From Bacteroidota bacterium (GTDB lineage: Bacteria; Bacteroidota; Bacteroidia; B-17B0; Aurantibacillaceae): DNA of 64,000 nt. This document shows, in pieces, positions 6,196 through 30,439 of the stretch; position 1 is the first letter of the stretch; every line of letters begins with the position of its first letter. The notes beneath the pieces were generated by a model. That model was given only the letters and a program-made list of their open reading frames with translations. It was not told the DNA's origin and did no database searches. The DNA lies in assembly GCA_020403265.1 (NCBI GenBank), contig JADBXZ010000091.1, forward strand, positions 9,189 to 73,188, in the 5' to 3' direction. A program made the position numbers and the translations under genes.

Positions 6196-8282
6196 TAAAT
6201 ATCTTGATCTAAGGCTTCAAATATACCAGGTTTAAAACCGAAAATGAGTTTAGAAATTGATTTGCCTATTTTTGAAAACTTTTTTATGGTTGGGTAATAA
6301 GACGGGTAATCGTAAAAATAGTTGTTGGGTTGTTTAAATGCGTGTTCAAATTCAGTAGCTGAAAGATCTAATTTTTTAATGACGTATTCTATTTCCGTTT
6401 GAATATTTTGTTTATCATAAGGTAAATTTTCTAACAAGGCTAAACCGTCATCTCTTACAATTTCATTCGAGAGCACTTGGGCGGAATAGGTGATAATTCG
6501 CTTATCAATATTGAATTTTTTTGGTAGCCAATATGAAATAGCAAATTTTGTAAATATGTTTTCGTGATGATGTCCACCATAGTCTACCCAACCATATTGC
6601 GATTCTAATAATTGTTTGGCTTGCTTTTTTTCATAAGGAAGATAATAAAGAGGTCTAATAGCTTTTATTTTTTTAATTAATCCGTAATAACCCAATTGTG
6701 CCAAAGTGAGTTGCGGGTAGTTTTTTAATCGTTTCCGAGAGAATTTTTTTACAACATAGTTAAGTTGTTTCGAATCAGAATACGTCCAGGCCAAAGGTTG
6801 TTTTCCCTCAGATCTAAAATCTCCGCCATTTAACGCATACTTAACACCATATTGCGCTGCTGCTTTGTATAGTACCGATTTAATCGCAATGTCGGTAGGG
6901 CTATCAATCCAGGGTAACCCAGCTAGGATATAAGATTTTAAAACAGTTTTTACCTCTTCGTAATCAATGACAAATGTTTTAAGATCATAATTTAATTGTT
7001 GAGTCATTTTTTCAATATTACTCACCGCTATATTTGAGCCCCAGCCATTATCTAAATATACTGCAAGGACTCTTAATTTGTATTGATGCGCGATGTGAAG
7101 TAAGTAAGAACTATCCGTTCCGCCGCTAATACCAATGATGCAATCGTAAGCTTTGCTTCGTCCATCCGATTTCATTTTCTCTACAATCCTTTCCCAATCG
7201 TTCATTCCTTTTTCACCTCTTGGGTATTGTTTCATTAAAGACAATTGCATCTTTGCGTAATTGGATACGCCTTTGTCATCGAACTTAATGTTTGGGATGG
7301 TGGTGTCCCACAAACCGATGGAACAGCGTTGATAGTTTTTTGAATAATCTATTTTACGGCGAATGATTTTGGAATAAAGATCAATTATTCGTTCAGCTGT
7401 TTTTTCGCTGCTTAATTTTTGGATGTTTTCTCTGCCATTGCTTCTGGTTTTTTGTTTAAGGATTTGACTAATTTTTTCAGCAATTTCATCTGCCTTAAAG
7501 TTCACCAAAAAACTATTTTCGGTTCCGTTTATCACGTTGGCTACATCACCTACTTTTGTTGAGACAATTGGGCAATTACAAGCCATTGCTTCTTTAATAA
7601 CGTTTGGTGAGCCTTCATGATTGGAAGTAAGCAAAAGAAGATCGGCGGCATTGTAATGGTCTACCATTTGTAAAGTGTTTAAGCCTTTTAGAAAATGAAC
7701 CTCAATGCTAGGTATATGTTCTTTTACTTTATCGAGGGCTGCTTTAGCAAGTGCATAATTTTTTTCGGGTCGATTAGGATCAGATGCAAACAAAACATGG
7801 AACATCGATGAGGACCAGTTTAATTTTTCACGAGCCTCATCAATTAGTCGAGGTTTAAAGGTATTCAAGTCAACTCCGTTTGGAATTACAATTGCCTTTT
7901 GATTAGCTAACACATTGTACATTTCATCTGATTTTACAATCGTTTGACTCCAGAAAAATTTAGAGAGAAATCGGGTAAATAGAAAAATGAGTTTATTGGT
8001 TGAAAGCACATCACTGCCCATTAAGGAAACAACGATAGGTTTTGACGTAAAGGTTAAAGTTGCTACAATGCCGCTTAGTGAATAATGCGCATGAATTAAT
8101 TCCGGCTTCTCGGTTTGCATGAGTTTACGAAGCGGAATAATGTTTTTGAAGTAACCCTTTAAACCGGTACCTACAATGTTGTAAAAAACAACTTGAATAC
8201 CCTTCTCTTCTAATGATTGAGCCTGTCTTTGCGTAATATAGTCTACGCCATGATTGTAACTTCTAACAAATAAAACCTTCAT
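6195..8282 (-). CDS. Fusion of GT4 glycosyltransferase and N-acetyl-sugar amidotransferase (WbpG-like)
   Basis: N-terminal half IHAHYS, PNGVD, EGSPNVIKEAMAC; C-terminal half IIGISGGTDSSY and HHENIFTKF. The start at 8282 overlaps the upstream TGA (ATGA). Confidence 0.8.
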   Translation of the reverse strand: MKVLFVRSYNHGVDYITQRQAQSLEEKGIQVVFYNIVGTGLKGYFKNIIPLRKLMQTEKPELIHAHYSLSGIVATLTFTSKPIVVSLMGSDVLSTNKLIFLFTRFLSKFFWSQTIVKSDEMYNVLANQKAIVIPNGVDLNTFKPRLIDEAREKLNWSSSMFHVLFASDPNRPEKNYALAKAALDKVKEHIPSIEVHFLKGLNTLQMVDHYNAADLLLLTSNHEGSPNVIKEAMACNCPIVSTKVGDVANVINGTENSFLVNFKADEIAEKISQILKQKTRSNGRENIQKLSSEKTAERIIDLYSKIIRRKIDYSKNYQRCSIGLWDTTIPNIKFDDKGVSNYAKMQLSLMKQYPRGEKGMNDWERIVEKMKSDGRSKAYDCIIGISGGTDSSYLLHIAHQYKLRVLAVYLDNGWGSNIAVSNIEKMTQQLNYDLKTFVIDYEEVKTVLKSYILAGLPWIDSPTDIAIKSVLYKAAAQYGVKYALNGGDFRSEGKQPLAWTYSDSKQLNYVVKKFSRKRLKNYPQLTLAQLGYYGLIKKIKAIRPLYYLPYEKKQAKQLLESQYGWVDYGGHHHENIFTKFAISYWLPKKFNIDKRIITYSAQVLSNEIVRDDGLALLENLPYDKQNIQTEIEYVIKKLDLSATEFEHAFKQPNNYFYDYPSYYPTIKKFSKIGKSISKLIFGFKPGIFEALDQDI

Positions 8283-23505: not shown

Positions 23506-25734
23506 TTACTTAATGTATTTTATTCCAATATAATATTCACAACGTGGTTTATAGTCCTCATTGATAGGAAATTTGGCGTTTAATTTGAGGATTTGTTCTC
23601 TACTTAATTGTGAAGTCTCCATACTATCAATTTCCAATAATTCATTTTCCAACATTGGAAGTTTGGAATAGAGATTTTTTTTTAGCGCTATATTGGGTAC
23701 AATAGAACTTTCGGAAGCAATACAGAAAAACCCATATTGTTTCACGTTTGAAAACACAGAGGCGATTGTTTTTGGAATAACTCTATATTCATCCATCCAA
23801 ATCATACAATTGCCATTTAACTTTAGATGTTCTTTAATTAACTGGAAAAACTCTTTTGAATATAGATTGTTGCTATATGCTGAGGTAGAAAGTAATGGAT
23901 CTATTAAAATTAAATCGTAATATTCATTTGATTTATAAAGAAACTTTCTGCCATCTTCAATATTTGTGGAGATATGTTTTGACTTTAACATCACATTTAG
24001 GTAATCAATTTGGTTTAAATTATCTAAGAGAGATTTACTTAATTCGACTAGAGTAATTGCAGGTACTGGATTATGCAGTAGGATTGTTTCTGTTATCGAA
24101 CCAGTTCCATAGCCAATAATTAGGACATTTTTCAATTCTTTGCAGGAAGCCAGCGCCTCAATCGCTTCATAATAAAAAAATGCTGTTGGTCTTCCACCAT
24201 GTGATAATCCGTTGATGTATGTTCTTAACTTTTCTTGATTGTGAAAAGTTACAATTACACCATCAATAGTTTCAGTAAAAATTATTTTATCATTAACATC
24301 AAAAACATATTTCGGATGGATTACTTTATAAAGTTCGGACTTTTTTGGATAACTAGAAGTAATAAAAACTACTAATAAGATTAAATAACCCAGTTTTGCA
24401 ATCGGTTTAAACATAGTTCTTTTACTTTTAATGAATAGTAAAAAAAACAAGCCGACAATAGATAATAGCAATAAGGTATTTTCGGTGCCTATATAATTAA
24501 GAAACACAAAGCCGGTTACCAGTCCTCCGCTTACGTTACCTAATACGCTGAAGAAATACACTTTACCTACTGCTTGACCGTCGTTTTGATTGCTAAATGC
24601 AATTGACGTGATTAAAGGAAAACTTGCACCCATCAGTATTGAAGGGATGGATATAAAAATTATAGGCCAAATAAATATGTCTAATAAATTATAAAGACTG
24701 GTAACAAAGGCCTTTATGGAATTAGTTGATATACTTAAACTTGGATGTAGCATTTGTGTGAAGCTTAGTTTTTGAAGTTGGCTAATGATATTTTCTTTTT
24801 TTAATAGTAAATAAAGAAATGCCATAGAAAGTATTACAAAAATTGCAATACAAAATTGAAAAAAGTAGAATAAATTCTTTTTGTTAATGCGGTTGTTTTG
24901 ACTTAATTTCTTTTTCATCAAAAAGCTACCAATCGCTATTCCTAGAAGGAATATAAATAATACAGAGGAAAATGAGTAGGCTGAAGCCTTGAATAGAACG
25001 CCCATTAGTCTAAACCATACTATTTCGTAGCTTATAGATATAAATCCCGTAATAAAAACAATCAGGAACACAGTACTTTTTATTGAAAATTGTTTTATGT
25101 TATTTATTTCAGTATTAATGTTTTTGTCGTCAATTGTTAAATATGATTTTCTTTTTAAAAAAAGAATAAGAGCAATTAAAAAATTGATTCCGGCAGCAAT
25201 GTACACACTGGTATCTATGCCTAAGAATGAAATAAGTACAAAACTACTGATTATTGTCCCAAAAGCTGCGCCTAAAGTATTAATGTAGTACAGAAAGCTA
25301 ACACTAAACATAAAGTTTTGCTCGATCGAATTGAAAATTTTTGTTAGTAATGGCAAAGTTAGCCCCATTAGAATGGTTGGTATACATAAAAAAATAAACA
25401 TAAACAGAAAAGACATGTAGTAGTTTGCTCCAGCTGTTTTTTTCCCTAGATATTCCAAAAATAAAATACTGAGTAACCCAAAAAACCCAATTAGTAATTC
25501 TATTGTATAGTAAAGCTTAACTTTATTTTTAACTTTCTCACTTAAATTTCCTCCAATAATAGCACCTATGCCTAAGCCTAACATATAAACACTTACGATT
25601 AGTGTGGTTGAAATATGTTCAACACTATAGTATAGTGTGAGGATTCTCTGCCAACAAACTTGATAAATTAGACTTGAGAATCCTGATAAGAAAAACACAA
25701 TAATGAATAGGTTACTATTTGATTTTATTTTCAC
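23506..25734 (-). CDS. Fused multi-pass membrane / spermidine synthase-like protein
   Basis: About 13 TM segments (SGFSSLIYQVCW, PTILMG, GFISISYE), followed by IIGYGTG, VELS, EDGR, ILIDP SAM-binding-like motifs; GTG start. Confidence 0.85.
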   Translation of the reverse strand: MKIKSNSNLFIIVFFLSGFSSLIYQVCWQRILTLYYSVEHISTTLIVSVYMLGLGIGAIIGGNLSEKVKNKVKLYYTIELLIGFFGLLSILFLEYLGKKTAGANYYMSFLFMFIFLCIPTILMGLTLPLLTKIFNSIEQNFMFSVSFLYYINTLGAAFGTIISSFVLISFLGIDTSVYIAAGINFLIALILFLKRKSYLTIDDKNINTEINNIKQFSIKSTVFLIVFITGFISISYEIVWFRLMGVLFKASAYSFSSVLFIFLLGIAIGSFLMKKKLSQNNRINKKNLFYFFQFCIAIFVILSMAFLYLLLKKENIISQLQKLSFTQMLHPSLSISTNSIKAFVTSLYNLLDIFIWPIIFISIPSILMGASFPLITSIAFSNQNDGQAVGKVYFFSVLGNVSGGLVTGFVFLNYIGTENTLLLLSIVGLFFLLFIKSKRTMFKPIAKLGYLILLVVFITSSYPKKSELYKVIHPKYVFDVNDKIIFTETIDGVIVTFHNQEKLRTYINGLSHGGRPTAFFYYEAIEALASCKELKNVLIIGYGTGSITETILLHNPVPAITLVELSKSLLDNLNQIDYLNVMLKSKHISTNIEDGRKFLYKSNEYYDLILIDPLLSTSAYSNNLYSKEFFQLIKEHLKLNGNCMIWMDEYRVIPKTIASVFSNVKQYGFFCIASESSIVPNIALKKNLYSKLPMLENELLEIDSMETSQLSREQILKLNAKFPINEDYKPRCEYYIGIKYIK

Positions 25735-25919
25735 TAAACTTAATTTTTTATGTTTTGGCTAATAATTTTTAATATTTGAATTTTTTGTAACTTATTAAAT
25801 TATTGTTGAAAATAACTAATTTACAGTATGTCTTTTTTAAATTCTGAATTGTTTTTAGTTTTTGAAATTAATTTGACGTAAAGTTTTCAGTTAAGTTTTT
25901 TATATCATTAAATATTATC

Positions 25920-26324
25920 TTAAATTTTCCCAATACCATTCCACAGCTTCTCCGCCGCGGCGGATAATCCTTTCTCTAAATTATGAGACGCCACATAGTC
26001 ATACATTGTTTTTGCTTTATCAATACTTGCCAACGAATGCGGAATGTCGCCCTTTTTCTCCGGACCGTGAATGATTTCAATGTTTGCTATTTGTGGGGCA
26101 TGCTTTGCTAAATATGCTTTAAGTAAACTCAACAGTTGATTTAAATCAGTGCGTTCTCCAACCGCCGTATTGAAGACTTCACCAATAGCTTTTGGGTTAG
26201 TAGTTGCCAAAGCCAGTTTGTTCATTTGCAATACATTGTCGATGTAAGTAAAGTCGCGGCTATTGGTGCCGTTGCCATTGATCACCGGACTTTCGTGTTT
26301 CATGAGTTTCATGCAAAATTTCGG
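25920..26324 (-). pseudogene. 3' partial duplicate of the wbpP-like epimerase gene
   Basis: 25930-26324 matches 27409-27792 with roughly 20 substitutions (manual count). It lacks the N-terminal ~190 aa and has a frameshifting palindrome insertion. Confidence 0.9.
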
Positions 26325-27383
26325 TTAAAGCGTTTCAATTTGTTTTTTAAGTTGATCTTTACTTGGTAAGTATAATTTGTATTCTTTTGCAAATATTTGA
26401 TGATTGTTTTTAGGCAATGTTATTTCAACAACCGTTTTATTTTCCTCTTTACAAAGTATAATACCTATTGTTGGGTTTTCGTTATTAGTTTTTACGAAGC
26501 GGTCATAATAATTCACATACATTTGCATCTGTCCAATATCTTGATGTGTAAGTTTTCCGATCTTAAGGTCAAGTAAAACAAAGCAGTTCAATAATCTGTT
26601 ATAAAATACCAGATCCACATAAAAATGGTCTCCTTCAAACGAAAATCTTTTTTGTCGTCCCGCAAATAAGAATCCTTTCCCCATTTCGAGCATAAAATGT
26701 TCAAGTTTATCTATAATAGCTTTTTCCAGATCTCTTTCGGTATAGTGTGGCCGTTCCTGTAAATCAAGAAATTCCAGCACCAAATGATCTTTTAAGGCAT
26801 CAGTAGGTTTCTGAATGATCTGGCCCTTTTTAGATAATTGTTTTACTTTTTGTTTATTCTTGCTCAAAATAAGGCGTTCATACAAAGATGAGCTGTACTG
26901 TCTTTGCAATTCTCTTACACTCCAATTGTTTTCTGTTGCTTCAATTTCATAAAAATTTCGTTCCTCTTCATTTTCAATTTTCAGTAACGTGGTATAATGT
27001 GACCAAGAAAGCGAAAATAGTAGTTCAGATTTCCGCGACAAGGATGCGGATTTTGGTGTGTTTTTTTGAGCTGAAGATTTCCGCGACGCTGTTGCGGAAA
27101 TTCGTGTTCGGTAATTCAGATAGAATTTTCTGAATCGTTCAAGATTATCAACAGAGAAGCCTCTCCCAAAATCTTTTGTTAGCTTATTACTAATTAGTTT
27201 AAGTGTAAAAGATGCATAACTTGCCCTGGCTTTATTTTTCTGTTCATCTTCTAAAATAAATTTTCCGATTTGGAAATACGTTAACAACATGGTGGTGTTA
27301 ATATTTTGAACTACTTGTTTTTTAGTTAACTCAACAAGTGATTTGATGTTTGAATAAAGAATATGTTCTTTTTTAGATTTCAA
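26325..27383 (-). CDS. yhcG: YhcG / DUF1016 PD-(D/E)XK nuclease family protein
   Basis: LSWSHY, WSVRELQRQ, KDHLVLEFL, GKGFLFAGRQ, DLVFYNRLL...DLK and GQMQMYVNYYD motifs; TTG start. Confidence 0.9.
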   Translation of the reverse strand: MKSKKEHILYSNIKSLVELTKKQVVQNINTTMLLTYFQIGKFILEDEQKNKARASYASFTLKLISNKLTKDFGRGFSVDNLERFRKFYLNYRTRISATASRKSSAQKNTPKSASLSRKSELLFSLSWSHYTTLLKIENEEERNFYEIEATENNWSVRELQRQYSSSLYERLILSKNKQKVKQLSKKGQIIQKPTDALKDHLVLEFLDLQERPHYTERDLEKAIIDKLEHFMLEMGKGFLFAGRQKRFSFEGDHFYVDLVFYNRLLNCFVLLDLKIGKLTHQDIGQMQMYVNYYDRFVKTNNENPTIGIILCKEENKTVVEITLPKNNHQIFAKEYKLYLPSKDQLKKQIETL

Positions 27384-27393
27384 AAATTCCTTT

Positions 27394-28371
27394 TTACTTT
27401 AAGTTATGCCAATACCATTCCACAGCTTCTTTCAATCCTTTCTCCAAATTATGAGACGGTGCAAAACCAAGCATTGTTTTTGCTTTATCAATACTTGCCA
27501 ACGAATGCGGAATGTCGCCCTTTCTCTCCGGACCGTGAATGATTTCAATGTTTGCTATTTGTGGGGCATGCTTTGCTAAAAATGCTTTAAGTAAACTCAA
27601 CAGTTGATTTAAATCAGTGCGTTCTCCCACCGCCGTATTGAAGACTTCACCAATAGCTTTTGGGTTAGTAGTTGCCAAAGCCAGTTCGTTCATTTGCAAT
27701 ACATTGTCAATGTAGGTAAAGTCGCGGCTATTGGTGCCGTCGCCATTGATCACCGGACTTTCATGTTTCATCAATTGCATGCAAAATTTCGGAATGGCTG
27801 CAGCGTATGCTCCGTTAGGGTCTTGGCGGCGGCCATATACATTAAAGTAACGTAAGCCGATGCACTCCAGGCCGTAGTTCAAGCCAAACACATGGGCGTA
27901 TAATTCGTTCACGTATTTGGTAACGGCGTAAGGGGAGAGGGGTTTGCCAATTTTATCTTCCACCTTTGGAAGTGTTTCACTATCGCCGTACGTGCTACTG
28001 CTGGCGGCGTATACAAAGCGTTTCACATTCGCATCACGTGATGCAACCAACATATTTAAAAATCCGTCGATGTTGACACTGTTGGTAGTGATAGGATCAT
28101 TGATGCTGCGGGGTACAGACCCGAGGGCTGCTTGGTGTAAAATGTAGTCTACATCTTGGCATGCTTTTTTGCAGGTGTCGAGATCGCGGATATCGCCTTC
28201 AATGAGTTTGAAGTTTTTATGGTCTTTTAGGTGCGCGATGTTTTCTCGTTTGCCGGTTGCGAAATTGTCGAGACAGGTGATGTAGTTATTTTTGGCAATA
28301 AAATAATCTACGAGGTTGCTTCCGATGAAGCCCGCACCTCCTGTGATTAATATTTTTTTGTTCGTGAGCAT
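27394..28371 (-). CDS. wbpP: UDP-N-acetylglucosamine 4-epimerase (WbpP/TviC-like SDR)
   Basis: TGGAGFIGSNL, HQAALGSVPRSI, SSSTYGD, YAVTK and YFNVYGRRQDPNGAYAA motifs. Confidence 0.85.
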   Translation of the reverse strand: MLTNKKILITGGAGFIGSNLVDYFIAKNNYITCLDNFATGKRENIAHLKDHKNFKLIEGDIRDLDTCKKACQDVDYILHQAALGSVPRSINDPITTNSVNIDGFLNMLVASRDANVKRFVYAASSSTYGDSETLPKVEDKIGKPLSPYAVTKYVNELYAHVFGLNYGLECIGLRYFNVYGRRQDPNGAYAAAIPKFCMQLMKHESPVINGDGTNSRDFTYIDNVLQMNELALATTNPKAIGEVFNTAVGERTDLNQLLSLLKAFLAKHAPQIANIEIIHGPERKGDIPHSLASIDKAKTMLGFAPSHNLEKGLKEAVEWYWHNLK

Positions 28372-28723
28372 TTTTATTTTCTTCTTACTTTTTTCTTAGT
28401 CAAAAAAGTAAGCAAAAAGACAAGCCCATGCGATTCTGCGCACTTGCACCTCGCCTAGCATGCATGGGCAGGCCTGCGCACGCGGTTTCAAAAGGTAGAT
28501 TTTGGTTCATATAAAGTTGATGCTTCGTGCCAGTCTCTGAGTTATTCGATAGGTGTGTGGAGAAGTTATCAAGACACGTTATGCGATTGTTCTTCGCGAT
28601 AAAATAGTCGCATAAACTGGAGCTATTGCCTGCCTGCTGGCTAGGCAGGAATCCTGCACCTCCTGTGATTAATATTTTTTTGTTCGTGATCATTTTTATT
28701 TTCTTCTTACTTTTTTCTTAGTC
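28334..28723. repeat. 68-bp direct repeat (28334-28401 and 28656-28723) covering the leader and first codons of wbpP
   Basis: 67/68 identical by direct comparison. Confidence 0.95.
28556..28693 (-). pseudogene. 5' partial duplicate of the wbpP-like gene with an in-frame palindromic insertion
   Basis: MITNKKILITGGAGF-LPSQQAG-NSSSLCDYFIAKNNRITCLDNFST, after which similarity ends. Confidence 0.85.
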
Positions 28724-29143
28724 TCTTTGGCTTCTTTTTTTGCTGACCGGCAGGTGCTCAGAACAAAGGCCAAAAGAAGCAAGTCTATAAGAAAGTAAGA
28801 ATGTTTTAAAATTAACTTATGAATTTAGTAAGCTATTGTTTCGAATTAAAAGATCGATTGAAACAGATGATCTTCTTCTTTATTCAAACAATCGGATGCT
28901 TGAGTTGTTATTTTAATGTGAATTAGCCTAATAATTATAGTTGGTTGTTGAGCAAAAAAAGAGCTTCTAAACCTTACTGAGAAAGTGGATTCATCTAAAA
29001 TTTTAAATACCTGTGAATCAAATCTTTTCAGAACTACACATAAAGAGTATCTCTTGTTTTTTTCACGGCTTCGCCACACTCAGTCACATTAAAATTTGCA
29101 ACTAAAGCCATTTTAGCGACGGTTAAGTTACTAATTTTAGGCG

Positions 29144-30439
29144 TTAGATAGACAATAACTGTCGATTAATTTTGGACTTGATTAACAACACCGTTGTGAG
29201 TAATTTGGAGGGATTAATTAAAAATATACCGGTTAAGGGTGCATGAAAAACCCCGCTTAAAATCCCCGCCATCGCAACAATGGTAAAGTTACTCACCGGT
29301 ATGTCAGTAATGCCAATAAGGCTTAAAAAGAAAGAAAAGATAAAGCCCAAGTAAGCGCCTACGAAAAGTGAAGGTGCAAAACTACCGCCATTACCGCCAC
29401 TTCCAAGTGTAATGGCAACGGCAAAAGATTTTAAAAGCATGGTAACTGTAATAAAGCAAAGTAAAATCCATTTACCATGGATGTAAGGTTGTATGAGGCT
29501 GTTACCAAACAATACAGAGGTGTTTAATTCTGCCAACGCTTTAATGCTTTCATAACCTTCGCCAAAAAGGGAAGGGAAAACAGCGTAAAGTAATGCCAAA
29601 CATAAGCCGCCTAATAACCATCTGTTTACGGATGATTTAATTTTTGTAAATCTGGACTCAATTTTATCAAAGAAATGAATATAGTATAAAGAAACGAGTC
29701 CGGCTAATAAACCTAACAAGAGATAAAATGGGGTATTATGGTAATCAAAAGGCTGTTTTAATTTAAAGAACAACAGACTTGTTTCGTTTAAAATTATTTT
29801 TGATAGCAAGGCGCCAGAGGCTGCGGCAATTAATAGAGGTATAAATGCACTAATTGAAATATCGACTAAAATGACTTCCAATGCAAACAACACACCGGCA
29901 ATTGGGGCATTAAAGGCACCGGCAATACCACCCGCAGCGCCGGCGGCCAGCAAAAGGGTTCGTTCTTTGTAGCTTAATTTATAAGTTCTGGCAAAATTGG
30001 AACCGATGGCACTACCGGTGCTTACGATTGGTGATTCTAAACCGGCAGAACCTCCAAAACCAACTGTAAATGCGCTTGTTAAAACATGCGAGTACATCTG
30101 GTAAAATGGCAAAAAACTACTTTTTTTGGCTATGGCAAAGAGAATGGCAGAATTACCCCTTTGCAATTGGTCCTTAAAAAAATACTTAATAATCAGAATT
30201 GTAATGCCAATACCAAAAATAGGTAAGGCTAAATAAAGGTATTTAAAATCAAATTTTAAAAAATAACCCTCAACTATGTATTCGCGAATAAAAAACACAA
30301 AAAGTTTAAGTACAACTGCCGCAATACCTGCACTAACACCAACCAGGATACTTGAAAAAATCAGAAATTGTTTATCGTTGGTTTTCTCATGAATCCAATT
30401 GATGCTTTTTTCGATGTAATTTATTTTTTTAAGATTCAT
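29144..30439 (-). pseudogene. CLC voltage-gated chloride channel family, C-terminally truncated
   Basis: GSAGLESP, GAAGGIAGAFNAP, GGSFAPSLFVG and HAPLTGIFLI motifs. Family similarity stops at ~29216 and no CBS domains follow. Confidence 0.75.

What the first reader, a model, noticed from the sequence alone, without database searches (positions are those of the whole stretch)
25930..27792. yhcG/DUF1016 nuclease gene bracketed by a ~390-bp duplication of its host gene's 3' end
Seen: in minus-strand order, intact wbpP, 10 nt, yhcG, then a second copy of the last ~130 codons of wbpP (25930-26324 vs 27409-27792, about 20 substitutions by hand count). The duplicate begins at the base immediately after the yhcG stop codon (26325-26327). 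No transposase, integrase or terminal inverted repeat is present. Known: YhcG is a predicted PD-(D/E)XK nuclease, often found on mobile DNA, with no clear function. Inference: the nuclease gene travels with a homology arm of its target, entering as a circle by single crossover or homing-like cut-and-repair, which restores the host gene and leaves a long target duplication. The repeats would also let it loop out again.
Basis: partly seen in the sequence, partly recalled or inferred. Interest (0 to 1): 0.68.

Follow-up and report, generated by a model that had tools for sequence, protein, structure and literature searches.

The report
Nuclease gene inserted with duplicated gene end
A single candidate phage-defence nuclease gene sits just behind a sugar-epimerase gene and is followed by a decaying spare copy of that gene's last 400 bases; this is a clear but old and fixed example of the known, still unexplained "insertion with long target duplication", not an element caught moving.

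Summary
On the minus strand an intact wbpP-like epimerase gene (28371..27394) is followed after 10 nt by yhcG (27383..26325). The base after the yhcG stop begins a 405-nt copy of the wbpP 3' end (26324..25920). That copy has 26 mismatches and an 11-nt insertion that shifts the frame.

Independent contigs from many metagenomes carry both junctions, so it is not a mis-assembly.

The layout recurs:
- A congener has wbpP-yhcG with a 57-nt repeat.
- A sister lineage has AbiE, an AAA_14/DUF4143 gene and yhcG stacked between wbpP and its spare end, with nested repeats.
- 6 of 65 distant DUF1016 genes are bracketed in the same way, at unrelated targets.
- Fic, Mrr and GmrSD genes in this genome are bracketed too.

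This matches "insertion with long target duplication" (Nobusato 2000; Furuta 2010).

- All 18 conspecific contigs read carry the insert, and no empty site was found.
- The repeats are 9-18% diverged.
- The cargo is not always a nuclease, and the targets are diverse.

I read yhcG as a promoterless defence-type passenger, long fixed and since reshuffled by homologous recombination.

The parts
27394..28371 (-). Intact wbpP-like NAD-dependent UDP-sugar 4-epimerase gene (325 aa), the target or host gene. GC is 44% against a genome GC of 34%.
   Evidence: orthologues at 54-87% aa identity in 45 of 76 genus genomes
27399..27792 (-). Repeat copy 1 (I): the last ~130 codons of the intact wbpP.
27384..27393 (-). 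10-nt spacer between the wbpP stop and the yhcG TTG start (AAAGGAATTT). No terminator-like site was predicted on the minus strand in 25500-29200.
26325..27383 (-). yhcG: a DUF1016_N + YhcG_C PD-(D/E)XK nuclease, 352 aa, PADLOC candidate PDC-S02. Columns D257 and D272-x-K274 are invariant in the alignment, and I read them as the D...(D/E)xK motif. The gene is under purifying selection (pN 0.074, pS 0.62 against L053).
25920..26324 (-). Repeat copy 2 (F): a displaced, decaying copy of wbpP codons ~194-325. It starts at the base after the yhcG stop. Four derived replacements (Q>K, D>N, E>K, R>K), a scrambled LGFAP region and a frameshift.
25951..25964 (.). Perfect 14-nt palindrome TCCGCCGCGGCGGA. 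It accounts for the net 11-nt insertion that frameshifts copy F. The genome holds 7 copies.
28649..28723 (-). Upstream duplicate of the wbpP leader and first 15 codons (96% to 28327-28401). It continues into a more diverged remnant of codons 16-36 and ~170 nt of GC-rich filler (remnant ORF 28400-28693).
   Evidence: similar 5' remnants in G062 and G074
27200..29400 (.). A ~2.2-kb tract in which this strain differs by ~5% (115 mismatches) from conspecific contigs that are otherwise ~99.9% identical. This is a homologous-recombination import covering the wbpP upstream region, all of wbpP and the first bases of yhcG.
27027..27107 (.). Two related hairpin-forming palindromes inside the yhcG coding sequence (TTTCCGC...GCGGAAA). 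They lie at the same place in the G062 gene.
   Evidence: D6; D4

Best explanation
A promoterless, ORF-sized cassette encoding a DUF1016/YhcG PD-(D/E)XK nuclease (a candidate anti-phage gene, PDC-S02) entered 10 nt behind the stop codon of wbpP. This site is the seam between conserved genes and a variable O-antigen-type gene cluster.

The entry was a recombinase-free event that duplicated the last ~400 nt of wbpP, i.e. an 'insertion with long target duplication'. The upstream copy keeps wbpP whole and places yhcG in the wbpP transcription unit. The downstream copy is a pseudogene fragment that is decaying.

The event is old and fixed in this species. Since then the locus has changed by ordinary homologous recombination, such as the 2.2-kb allele replacement across wbpP. 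In a sister lineage, further cassettes (AbiE, AAA_14/DUF4143) landed at the same site, each with its own duplicated wbpP end.

Shown here: the anatomy, recurrence, age, fixation, independence from cargo type, and the recombination tract.

Inferred: that the duplication arose during insertion, by fill-in of widely staggered breaks or by a template switch back to an upstream position. Also inferred: co-transcription with wbpP, a defence role for YhcG, and that the nuclease is a passenger rather than the agent.
For: 1. Anatomy.
2. Same site in other lineages. G062 has wbpP, 6 nt, yhcG (78% aa), 9 nt, then a 57-nt repeat that ends at the wbpP stop, with the next gene's ATG 4 nt later. L053 and G098 have wbpP, AbiEi/AbiEii, PDC-S01, yhcG (88% aa) and a 434-nt wbpP fragment. 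A nested 156-nt repeat brackets PDC-S01, and extra wbpP-end copies follow each cassette.
3. Family-wide survey: 6 of 65 testable DUF1016 genes from many phyla are bracketed by 32-890-nt repeats. Among neighbouring ORFs 4 of 120 are bracketed, and those 4 are Fic, AAA_14/DUF4143, an AlbA_2-like ATPase and ORF6N. Targets are unrelated genes.
4. Same genome: unique two-copy repeats also bracket Fic, Mrr_cat and GmrSD genes.
5. Age and fixation: about 18 changes plus an indel on the fragment branch and about 10 on the intact branch. All conspecific contigs carry the insert. Copy identity is 81.6% in most strains.
6. No recombinase gene and no inverted repeats.
7. Literature: RM genes of types I-IV inserted with 30-420-bp target duplications and no other mobile-element genes; no insertion mechanism is given in the passages read (PMC2853133).
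Against: - No same-species empty site exists in the data. That the repeat was single-copy before insertion therefore rests on other species (G089, G074, G091, G021).
- The left junction (wbpP stop plus 6-21 nt, then yhcG) is shared by three lineages whose yhcG and wbpP are saturated at synonymous sites. Yet each lineage's repeats are only 5-11% diverged and cluster within genomes. A single ancient insertion does not explain that without gene conversion or re-seeding. Independent insertions would imply site preference.
- The tight 3' boundary (repeat starts 0-14 nt after the stop in 7 of the 12 cases where this distance was measured) is not explained by any proposed mechanism.
- The enrichment over all neighbouring ORFs is weak if the four defence-like controls are kept (Fisher one-sided p = 0.09).
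Confidence: 0.6

Rival explanations
1. Capture scar of allelic exchange. A donor fragment carrying its own wbpP plus yhcG was integrated into the resident wbpP by homology-facilitated illegitimate recombination during DNA uptake. The resident gene's 5' stub (28400-28723) and 3' stub (25920-26324) would be what remains. The intact wbpP would then be the foreign copy, and both duplications would date from one event.
For: - Both a 5' and a 3' remnant flank the wbpP-yhcG block here and in G062.
- wbpP and the 5' remnant are GC-rich (44-47%) against a 34% genome.
- A 2.2-kb recombination tract spans exactly this block in the population.
- Homology between sister genomes ends at the fragment.
Against: - G074 has a 5' remnant but showed no yhcG behind wbpP.
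- Past its first 75 nt the 5' remnant is far more diverged (~75%) than the 3' fragment (91%), so one event is unlikely.
- The model does not explain single-gene brackets at unrelated, non-seam targets.
Confidence: 0.2
2. One reading: yhcG is a self-mobilising element. Its nuclease cuts naive wbpP alleles (homing), or the gene excises through its repeats as a ~1.47-kb circle carrying a wbpP arm and re-enters by single crossover. Each round would regenerate the repeats.
For: - Closely related yhcG genes (78-88% aa) sit at the same left junction in three lineages, with young, lineage-specific repeats and different right junctions.
- Contig L143 reads wbpP end, yhcG, hybrid repeat, yhcG, as expected from unequal crossover.
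- The gene encodes an apparently intact nuclease.
Against: - No presence/absence polymorphism in any of the conspecific contigs read.
- The repeats are 9-18% diverged, so there has been no recent cycle.
- Targets elsewhere are unrelated genes, and an arm cannot explain arrival at a new target.
- The same bracketing occurs around Fic, ORF6N and AbiE cargo that have no recognised nuclease domain.
- L143's hybrid repeat carries another strain's variants and lies in a repeat longer than the assembler's word size, so it may be an assembly path error.
- Homing does not duplicate the target.
Confidence: 0.12
3. Assembly artefact: two strains' wbpP alleles were joined around yhcG.
For: The genome is a 138-contig draft with 2.3% contamination, and the population holds several wbpP alleles.
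Against: - An independent unitig matches both junctions with each copy's own variants.
- Metagenome contigs of 24-273 kb from different samples have the same order of genes.
- The fragment carries decay mutations seen in no intact allele.
Confidence: 0.01

Closest known systems
Insertion with long target duplication of restriction-modification genes (Nobusato et al. 2000, Gene, as cited in Furuta, Abe & Kobayashi 2010, NAR, PMC2853133)
   Same: - The insert has no transposase or integrase.
- It is flanked by long direct repeats of variable length (30-420 bp there; 32-890 nt in the loci read here).
- The repeats are host sequence that often overlaps a gene end.
- The cargo is a restriction-type nuclease; type IV solitary enzymes are included in their tables.
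- The passages read name no insertion mechanism.
   Different: - The cargo is a solitary DUF1016 nuclease, which the passages read do not list.
- There is no methyltransferase partner.
- No conspecific empty site is available.
- The same gene boundary was used repeatedly in a sister lineage, producing a stacked array with nested repeats.
- The insert is ORF-tight: 10 nt of leader and 0 nt of trailer.
C-terminal displacement and orphan arrays at Rhs / CDI / T6SS effector-immunity loci, attributed to homology-facilitated illegitimate recombination (from my own knowledge and earlier scan notes; no paper read here)
   Same: - A full-length gene is followed by inserted gene(s) and then a displaced 3' fragment of the same gene.
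- Arrays of such fragments build up (L053).
- No recombinase is needed.
   Different: - There the incoming module brings a new functional 3' end (a toxin tip) plus an immunity gene.
- Here the two 3' ends encode the same enzyme end, and the cargo is unrelated to the host gene.
Free-standing homing endonuclease genes (for example phage T4 seg/mob genes)
   Same: A lone nuclease gene lies between conserved genes, with no recombinase.
   Different: - Homing leaves no target duplication.
- It depends on cleavage of the empty allele and shows presence/absence polymorphism.
- None of these was found here.
Integron gene cassettes
   Same: - Promoterless, ORF-tight cassettes are stacked behind a fixed site and expressed from upstream.
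- A repeated sequence separates the cassettes in the L053 array.
   Different: - There is no integrase and no attC.
- The repeated spacer is a copy of the host gene end, with lengths from 35 to 434 nt.

Membership tests
Insertion with long target duplication (criteria of Furuta et al. 2010) | The insert is flanked by direct repeats longer than 30 bp. | tested here: met
   394/405-nt repeat at 90.9% identity
Insertion with long target duplication (criteria of Furuta et al. 2010) | The repeat aligns to a single-copy sequence in a related genome that lacks the insert (the empty site). | tested here: inconclusive
   Other species (G089, G074, G091, G021) have one wbpP 3' end followed directly by other genes. 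No conspecific empty site was found among the contigs read.
Insertion with long target duplication (criteria of Furuta et al. 2010) | No other mobility genes, insert under 20 kb, and repeats not part of a dispersed family. | tested here: met
   The insert is 1,069 nt and holds one ORF. The repeat has 2 copies in the genome.
Insertion with long target duplication (criteria of Furuta et al. 2010) | The cargo contains restriction and modification gene homologues. | tested here: not met
   The cargo is a solitary PD-(D/E)XK nuclease without a methyltransferase. Their tables do include solitary type IV enzymes, so the class fits loosely.
DUF1016 / YhcG family (Pfam PF17761 + PF06250) | Both domains score above the Pfam gathering cut-offs. 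| tested here: met
   130.8 and 189.6 bits against cut-offs of 32.8 and 32.5
DUF1016 / YhcG family (Pfam PF17761 + PF06250) | PD-(D/E)XK catalytic motif is intact. | tested here: met
   D257 and D272-L-K274 are invariant in 12 homologues. Their assignment as the catalytic motif is my reading of the alignment. No solved homologue was available for confirmation.
PADLOC phage-defence candidate PDC-S02 | Match to the PDC-S02 profile HMMs. | tested here: met
   E 5.3e-135
PADLOC phage-defence candidate PDC-S02 | Protects against phage. | not testable with these tools
   I found no experimental test of PDC-S02 among the 10 papers listed, judged from titles and abstract openings only.
Homing endonuclease gene | Presence/absence polymorphism among close relatives. 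| tested here: not met
   All conspecific contigs read carry yhcG 10 nt after wbpP.
Homing endonuclease gene | Insertion without target duplication. | tested here: not met
   ~400-nt duplication
Homing endonuclease gene | The enzyme cleaves the empty allele near the insertion point. | not testable with these tools
   Needs biochemistry.
Integrase-mediated island that restores the target gene's 3' end | A tyrosine or serine recombinase gene in the element. | tested here: not met
   yhcG is the only ORF between the repeats. The neighbours are CLC, wbpP, MFS/spermidine-synthase-like and MBOAT genes.
Campbell-type integration of a circle carrying a homology arm | Circular or tandem-amplified forms exist. 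| tested here: inconclusive
   Contig L143 reads as a tandem unit but may be an assembly path error. Read mapping was not possible.

The most novel reading that the evidence does not exclude
Copies of a conserved gene's end may act as recombinase-free 'sockets'. An unknown insertion process would place promoterless, ORF-tight defence cassettes (DUF1016, AAA_14/DUF4143, AbiE, Fic, Mrr, GmrSD) at gene boundaries with long, variable target duplications. The duplicated ends would then serve as portable homology arms. Those arms would let cassettes stack, integron-like, and travel between strains whose downstream O-antigen clusters differ. YhcG-type nucleases might supply the widely staggered breaks.
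Probability: 0.13. Interest if true: 0.8.

Novelty: new member of a known kind. Interest (0 to 1): 0.42.

Why it matters
DUF1016/YhcG (PDC-S02) and AAA_14/DUF4143 (PDC-S01) are PADLOC defence candidates. DUF1016 homologues at 51-67% identity occur in many bacterial phyla and in an archaeon. How such lone genes enter chromosomes without a recombinase is not known.

This locus gives a well-bounded case:
- the insert is one ORF with 10 nt of leader and no trailer;
- there is population data;
- a sister lineage used the same gene boundary several times, leaving nested duplications.

That makes the 25-year-old 'long target duplication' puzzle testable in a tractable Bacteroidota locus.

It also shows a practical consequence. 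The spare gene end sits at the seam where O-antigen-type clusters are swapped, so defence cassettes and surface-polysaccharide variation are physically coupled.

For this window alone the result is sobering. The insert is old, fixed and shows no sign of current movement.

Tried and rejected
1. Megablast of the 3.5-kb region against plasmids found nothing.
2. A PDB sequence search with YhcG found no hit.
3. An exact look-up of this strain's WbpP protein found nothing on record, so no empty allele could be found that way.
5. dN/dS dating of yhcG against wbpP between lineages failed because synonymous sites are saturated in both. This only shows that the association is old.
6. I first read the identical ~150-nt core of the two repeat copies as fragment-to-gene conversion in this strain. 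I rejected this after one search showed that the strain differs from its population over a 2.2-kb tract spanning all of wbpP, which indicates allele replacement.
7. The 51-nt 'flanking repeat' of L054 is a dispersed GC-rich REP-like sequence, not a target duplication.
8. L143 as proof of tandem amplification: not accepted. Its hybrid repeat carries variants of another strain's allele, and the shared core exceeds the assembler's word length.
9. A shared TTTTGCA motif just after the yhcG stop in G000, G062 and L053 might mean one ancestral right junction. It is too weak and post hoc to use.
10. The 5' remnant filler (28402-28648) is not a repeat family in this genome.
Full report
**Observation.** On the minus strand the window holds three features in a row.
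- An intact 325-aa NAD-dependent epimerase gene of the WbpP type lies at 28371..27394.
- A 10-nt spacer follows.
- A 352-aa ORF lies at 27383..26325.

Immediately after that ORF's TAA comes a second copy of the last ~130 codons of the epimerase gene (26324..25920). Pfam assigns the middle ORF to DUF1016_N + YhcG_C and the flanking gene to Epimerase / GDP_Man_Dehyd.

The two copies align over 405 columns at 90.9% identity, with 26 mismatches and one 11-nt insertion in the distal copy. A 300-nt gapless core is 95% identical. The repeat has exactly two copies in the 4.25-Mb genome. No recombinase ORF and no flanking inverted repeat is present.

The 30 nt upstream of wbpP plus its first 45 nt recur about 320 nt further upstream (28649-28723 against 28327-28401, 96%). 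This copy continues into a much more diverged stub of codons 16-36.

**Not an assembly artefact.** A Logan unitig (L138) matches window 27501-26189 with one mismatch. It carries the intact-type sequence upstream of yhcG and the fragment-type sequence downstream. Eighteen JGI/ENA metagenome contigs of up to 273 kb were also read. All those that extend far enough show the same gene order: Na/H exchanger, CLC channel, wbpP, yhcG, fragment, spermidine-synthase-like gene, MBOAT.

**The gene.** YhcG here matches PADLOC candidate PDC-S02 (E 5e-135). Columns D257 and D272-x-K274 are invariant in the alignment, and I read them as the PD-(D/E)XK motif. The gene is under purifying selection (pN 0.074 against pS 0.62 versus its 88%-identical relative). 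Its GC content (32%) is typical of the genome (34%), whereas wbpP is 44%. No terminator-like site was predicted on the minus strand anywhere in 25500-29200, so co-transcription with wbpP is a reasonable inference. No solved structure is related by sequence. I found no experimental test of PDC-S02 among the ten papers listed, judged from their titles and abstract openings only.

**Recurrence at the same site.**
- In congener G062, wbpP (74% aa identity) is followed after 6 nt by yhcG (78%). After 9 nt comes a 57-nt copy (95%) of the wbpP end, which stops at the stop codon. The ATG of the next gene lies 4 nt later. There the duplication gives yhcG and the downstream gene the same upstream context.
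- In an activated-sludge contig (L053, yhcG 88%) and in genome G098, the space between wbpP and a 434-nt wbpP fragment holds AbiEi/AbiEii, an AAA_14/DUF4143 gene (PDC-S01) and yhcG.
- In that array a 156-nt repeat brackets the PDC-S01 gene. Copies of the wbpP end plus its native downstream sequence follow each cassette. A decayed wbpP end lies just upstream of yhcG, with alignment score 42 against a maximum of 39 in 200 shuffles.
- So the boundary behind wbpP has been used several times, by unrelated cargo.
- Homology between L053 and G098, L157 or L159 stops at or within 55 nt of the end of the fragment. Beyond that point the sequences no longer match. In L157 the genes there are of O-antigen type: glycosyltransferase, DegT, Wzx-like, Wzy.
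- The fragment therefore marks the seam of a variable polysaccharide locus.

**Recurrence across the family and across cargo.**
- Of 80 DUF1016 loci from one-per-species genomes, 65 had enough flank to test. They are 51-67% identical to the query and come from many bacterial phyla and Methanoregula.
- Six of the 65 are bracketed by direct repeats of 32-890 nt. A seventh lies on a short contig.
- Among 120 neighbouring ORFs of similar size, four are bracketed. These four are a Fic protein, an AAA_14/DUF4143 ATPase, an AlbA_2-like ATPase and an ORF6N protein (identified by motifs in the printed sequences).
- Taken at face value the enrichment is weak (one-sided Fisher p = 0.09). If those four are counted as the same class of lone accessory genes, no ordinary neighbour ORF is bracketed (0 of 116). 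That exclusion is post hoc.
- The duplicated targets are unrelated: hsdM, a type IIG methyltransferase, a ThiH-like radical-SAM gene, radC, DoxX and a dehydratase.
- The downstream repeat starts 0, 0, 1, 9, 9 or 14 nt after the stop codon in six cases. This tight boundary is striking and unexplained.
- In this same genome, unique two-copy repeats also bracket a Fic gene (64 nt), an Mrr_cat endonuclease gene (134 nt) and a GmrSD gene (86 nt).
- The process is therefore neither specific to wbpP nor specific to YhcG.

**Age and population state.**
- Polarising the differences with 13 outgroup sequences gives about 18 substitutions plus the 11-nt insertion on the fragment branch. These include four replacements at otherwise invariant residues. 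About 10 substitutions fall on the intact branch.
- Conspecific contigs are ~99.9% identical to the window outside a ~2.2-kb tract (about 27200-29400), which carries 115 of ~121 mismatches.
- In that tract most strains carry a different wbpP allele, so their intact and fragment copies are only 81.6% identical.
- This is ordinary homologous replacement of the wbpP region. Its right end lies inside yhcG, so the donor also carried yhcG.
- Every conspecific contig read that reaches this position has yhcG 10 nt behind wbpP, and no empty site was seen.
- One 2-kb contig (L143) reads as wbpP end, yhcG, hybrid repeat, yhcG. That is what unequal crossover would produce. However, its hybrid carries another strain's variants and spans a shared core longer than an assembler word, so I treat it as inconclusive.

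**An unresolved tension.**
- The yhcG and wbpP genes of G000, L053/G098 and G062 are saturated at synonymous sites.
- The left junction (wbpP stop, 6-21 nt, yhcG) is the same in all three.
- Yet each genome's repeat copies cluster with each other (93%, 89% and 95% identity) and not across genomes (69-74%). The right junctions also differ.
- Either related cassettes entered the same boundary independently, or one ancient insertion has had its fragment repeatedly renewed by recombination with functional wbpP ends. Cluster swapping at this seam would make that likely.
- I could not decide between the two.

**Mechanism.** The best-supported reading is the class described by Kobayashi's group for restriction-modification genes. 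That class covers inserts without mobility genes, flanked by long and variable duplications of host sequence, found for types I-IV. The passages I read name no insertion mechanism (PMC2853133).
- I favour an illegitimate, recombinase-free event that creates the duplication at insertion, either by fill-in of widely staggered breaks or by a replication template switch that returns upstream.
- Survival would then depend on the adjacent gene remaining intact.
- These steps are inferred, not shown.
- The nuclease is most simply a passenger, because non-nuclease cargo shows the same bracket.
- A rival is capture of a donor wbpP+yhcG segment inside the resident wbpP by homology-facilitated illegitimate recombination, which would also explain the 5' stub. 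But G074 has a 5' stub and showed no yhcG behind wbpP, and the 5' stub is much older than the 3' fragment.
It lacks its key signatures here: there is no polymorphism, no target specificity across the family, and a duplication is present where homing leaves none.

**Earlier notes of this scan.** One search lists 34 similar DUF1016 observations in at least 32 genomes, and one search lists a stacked array at a polysaccharide seam. I used these as leads only.

**Verdict.** This is a real, well-bounded, old and fixed example of a known but mechanistically open kind of insertion, with a solitary DUF1016 nuclease as cargo. Interest is moderate. Its main value is as a clean test locus, together with the nested array in the sister lineage. 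It is not evidence of an active homing element.

Noticed in passing
window 28327-28401 and 28649-28723 (remnant ORF 28400-28693): The wbpP leader and first 15 codons are duplicated ~320 nt upstream (96%). The copy continues into a more diverged stub of codons 16-36 and ~170 nt of GC-rich (47%) filler that occurs nowhere else in the genome. Similar 5' stubs lie upstream of wbpP in G062 (113 nt, 71%) and in G074, which showed no yhcG behind wbpP.
   Followed up: partly
window 25951-25964: The 11-nt net insertion that frameshifts the dead wbpP copy is the perfect palindrome TCCGCCGCGGCGGA. The genome holds 7 copies, far more than chance (about 5e-4 expected by my own estimate) for a 34% GC genome. 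The palindrome is present in the fragment of all 8 conspecific contigs checked, and one copy is present in contig L054.
   Followed up: partly
window 27027-27107: Two related hairpin palindromes (TTTCCGC...GCGGAAA) lie 48 nt apart inside the yhcG coding sequence, between the two Pfam domains. G062's gene has them at the same place with the same spacing (L048 7346-7414).
   Followed up: no
window 27200-29400: This strain differs from otherwise ~99.9%-identical metagenome contigs by a 2.2-kb, ~5%-diverged recombination tract covering wbpP and its upstream region. The C-terminal variable part of WbpP exists as at least three deeply different alleles in one species.
   Followed up: yes
window 27394-28371: wbpP has 44% GC (GC3 48%) in a 34% GC genome, while the inserted yhcG (32%) is compositionally native-like. 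This is the opposite of what one expects for host and insert.
   Followed up: no
G000 contigs outside the window: C90:6524-7916, C62:77006-79668, C86:78915-83360, C44:7417-14018, C98:2952-5756: Unique two-copy direct repeats of 64-364 nt bracket a Fic gene, an Mrr_cat endonuclease gene, a GmrSD gene, a DUF6544 gene (part of a multi-repeat stretch on C44) and an ECF sigma factor gene. This genome has about 30 such unique repeat pairs.
   Followed up: partly
L053:1528-6600 (and G098, L057:5088-10026): A defence islet (AbiEi/AbiEii, PDC-S01, PDC-S02) sits between wbpP and its 434-nt spare end. It has a nested 156-nt repeat around PDC-S01, a GC-rich REP-like element next to each wbpP-end copy, and one more, older wbpP fragment at 6615-6746.
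   Followed up: partly
L107:4990-7887 (Paludibacter MAG): A DUF1016 gene is bracketed by an 890-nt repeat at 98.8% identity, and the second copy starts 1 nt after the stop codon. This is the youngest-looking case seen and a good candidate for finding an empty site. An AAA_14/DUF4143 gene 1.6 kb downstream has its own 148-nt bracket.
   Followed up: no
L143:1-2050: A metagenome contig reads wbpP end, yhcG, hybrid (fragment-type then intact-type) repeat, then yhcG again. It is either a tandem amplification by unequal crossover or an assembly path error.
   Followed up: partly
L054:1560-3821: In one assembly an 80%-identical yhcG lies upstream of an intact wbpP (reverse order), among REP-like GC-rich repeats. 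A possible decayed wbpP end lies just before its start codon.
   Followed up: partly
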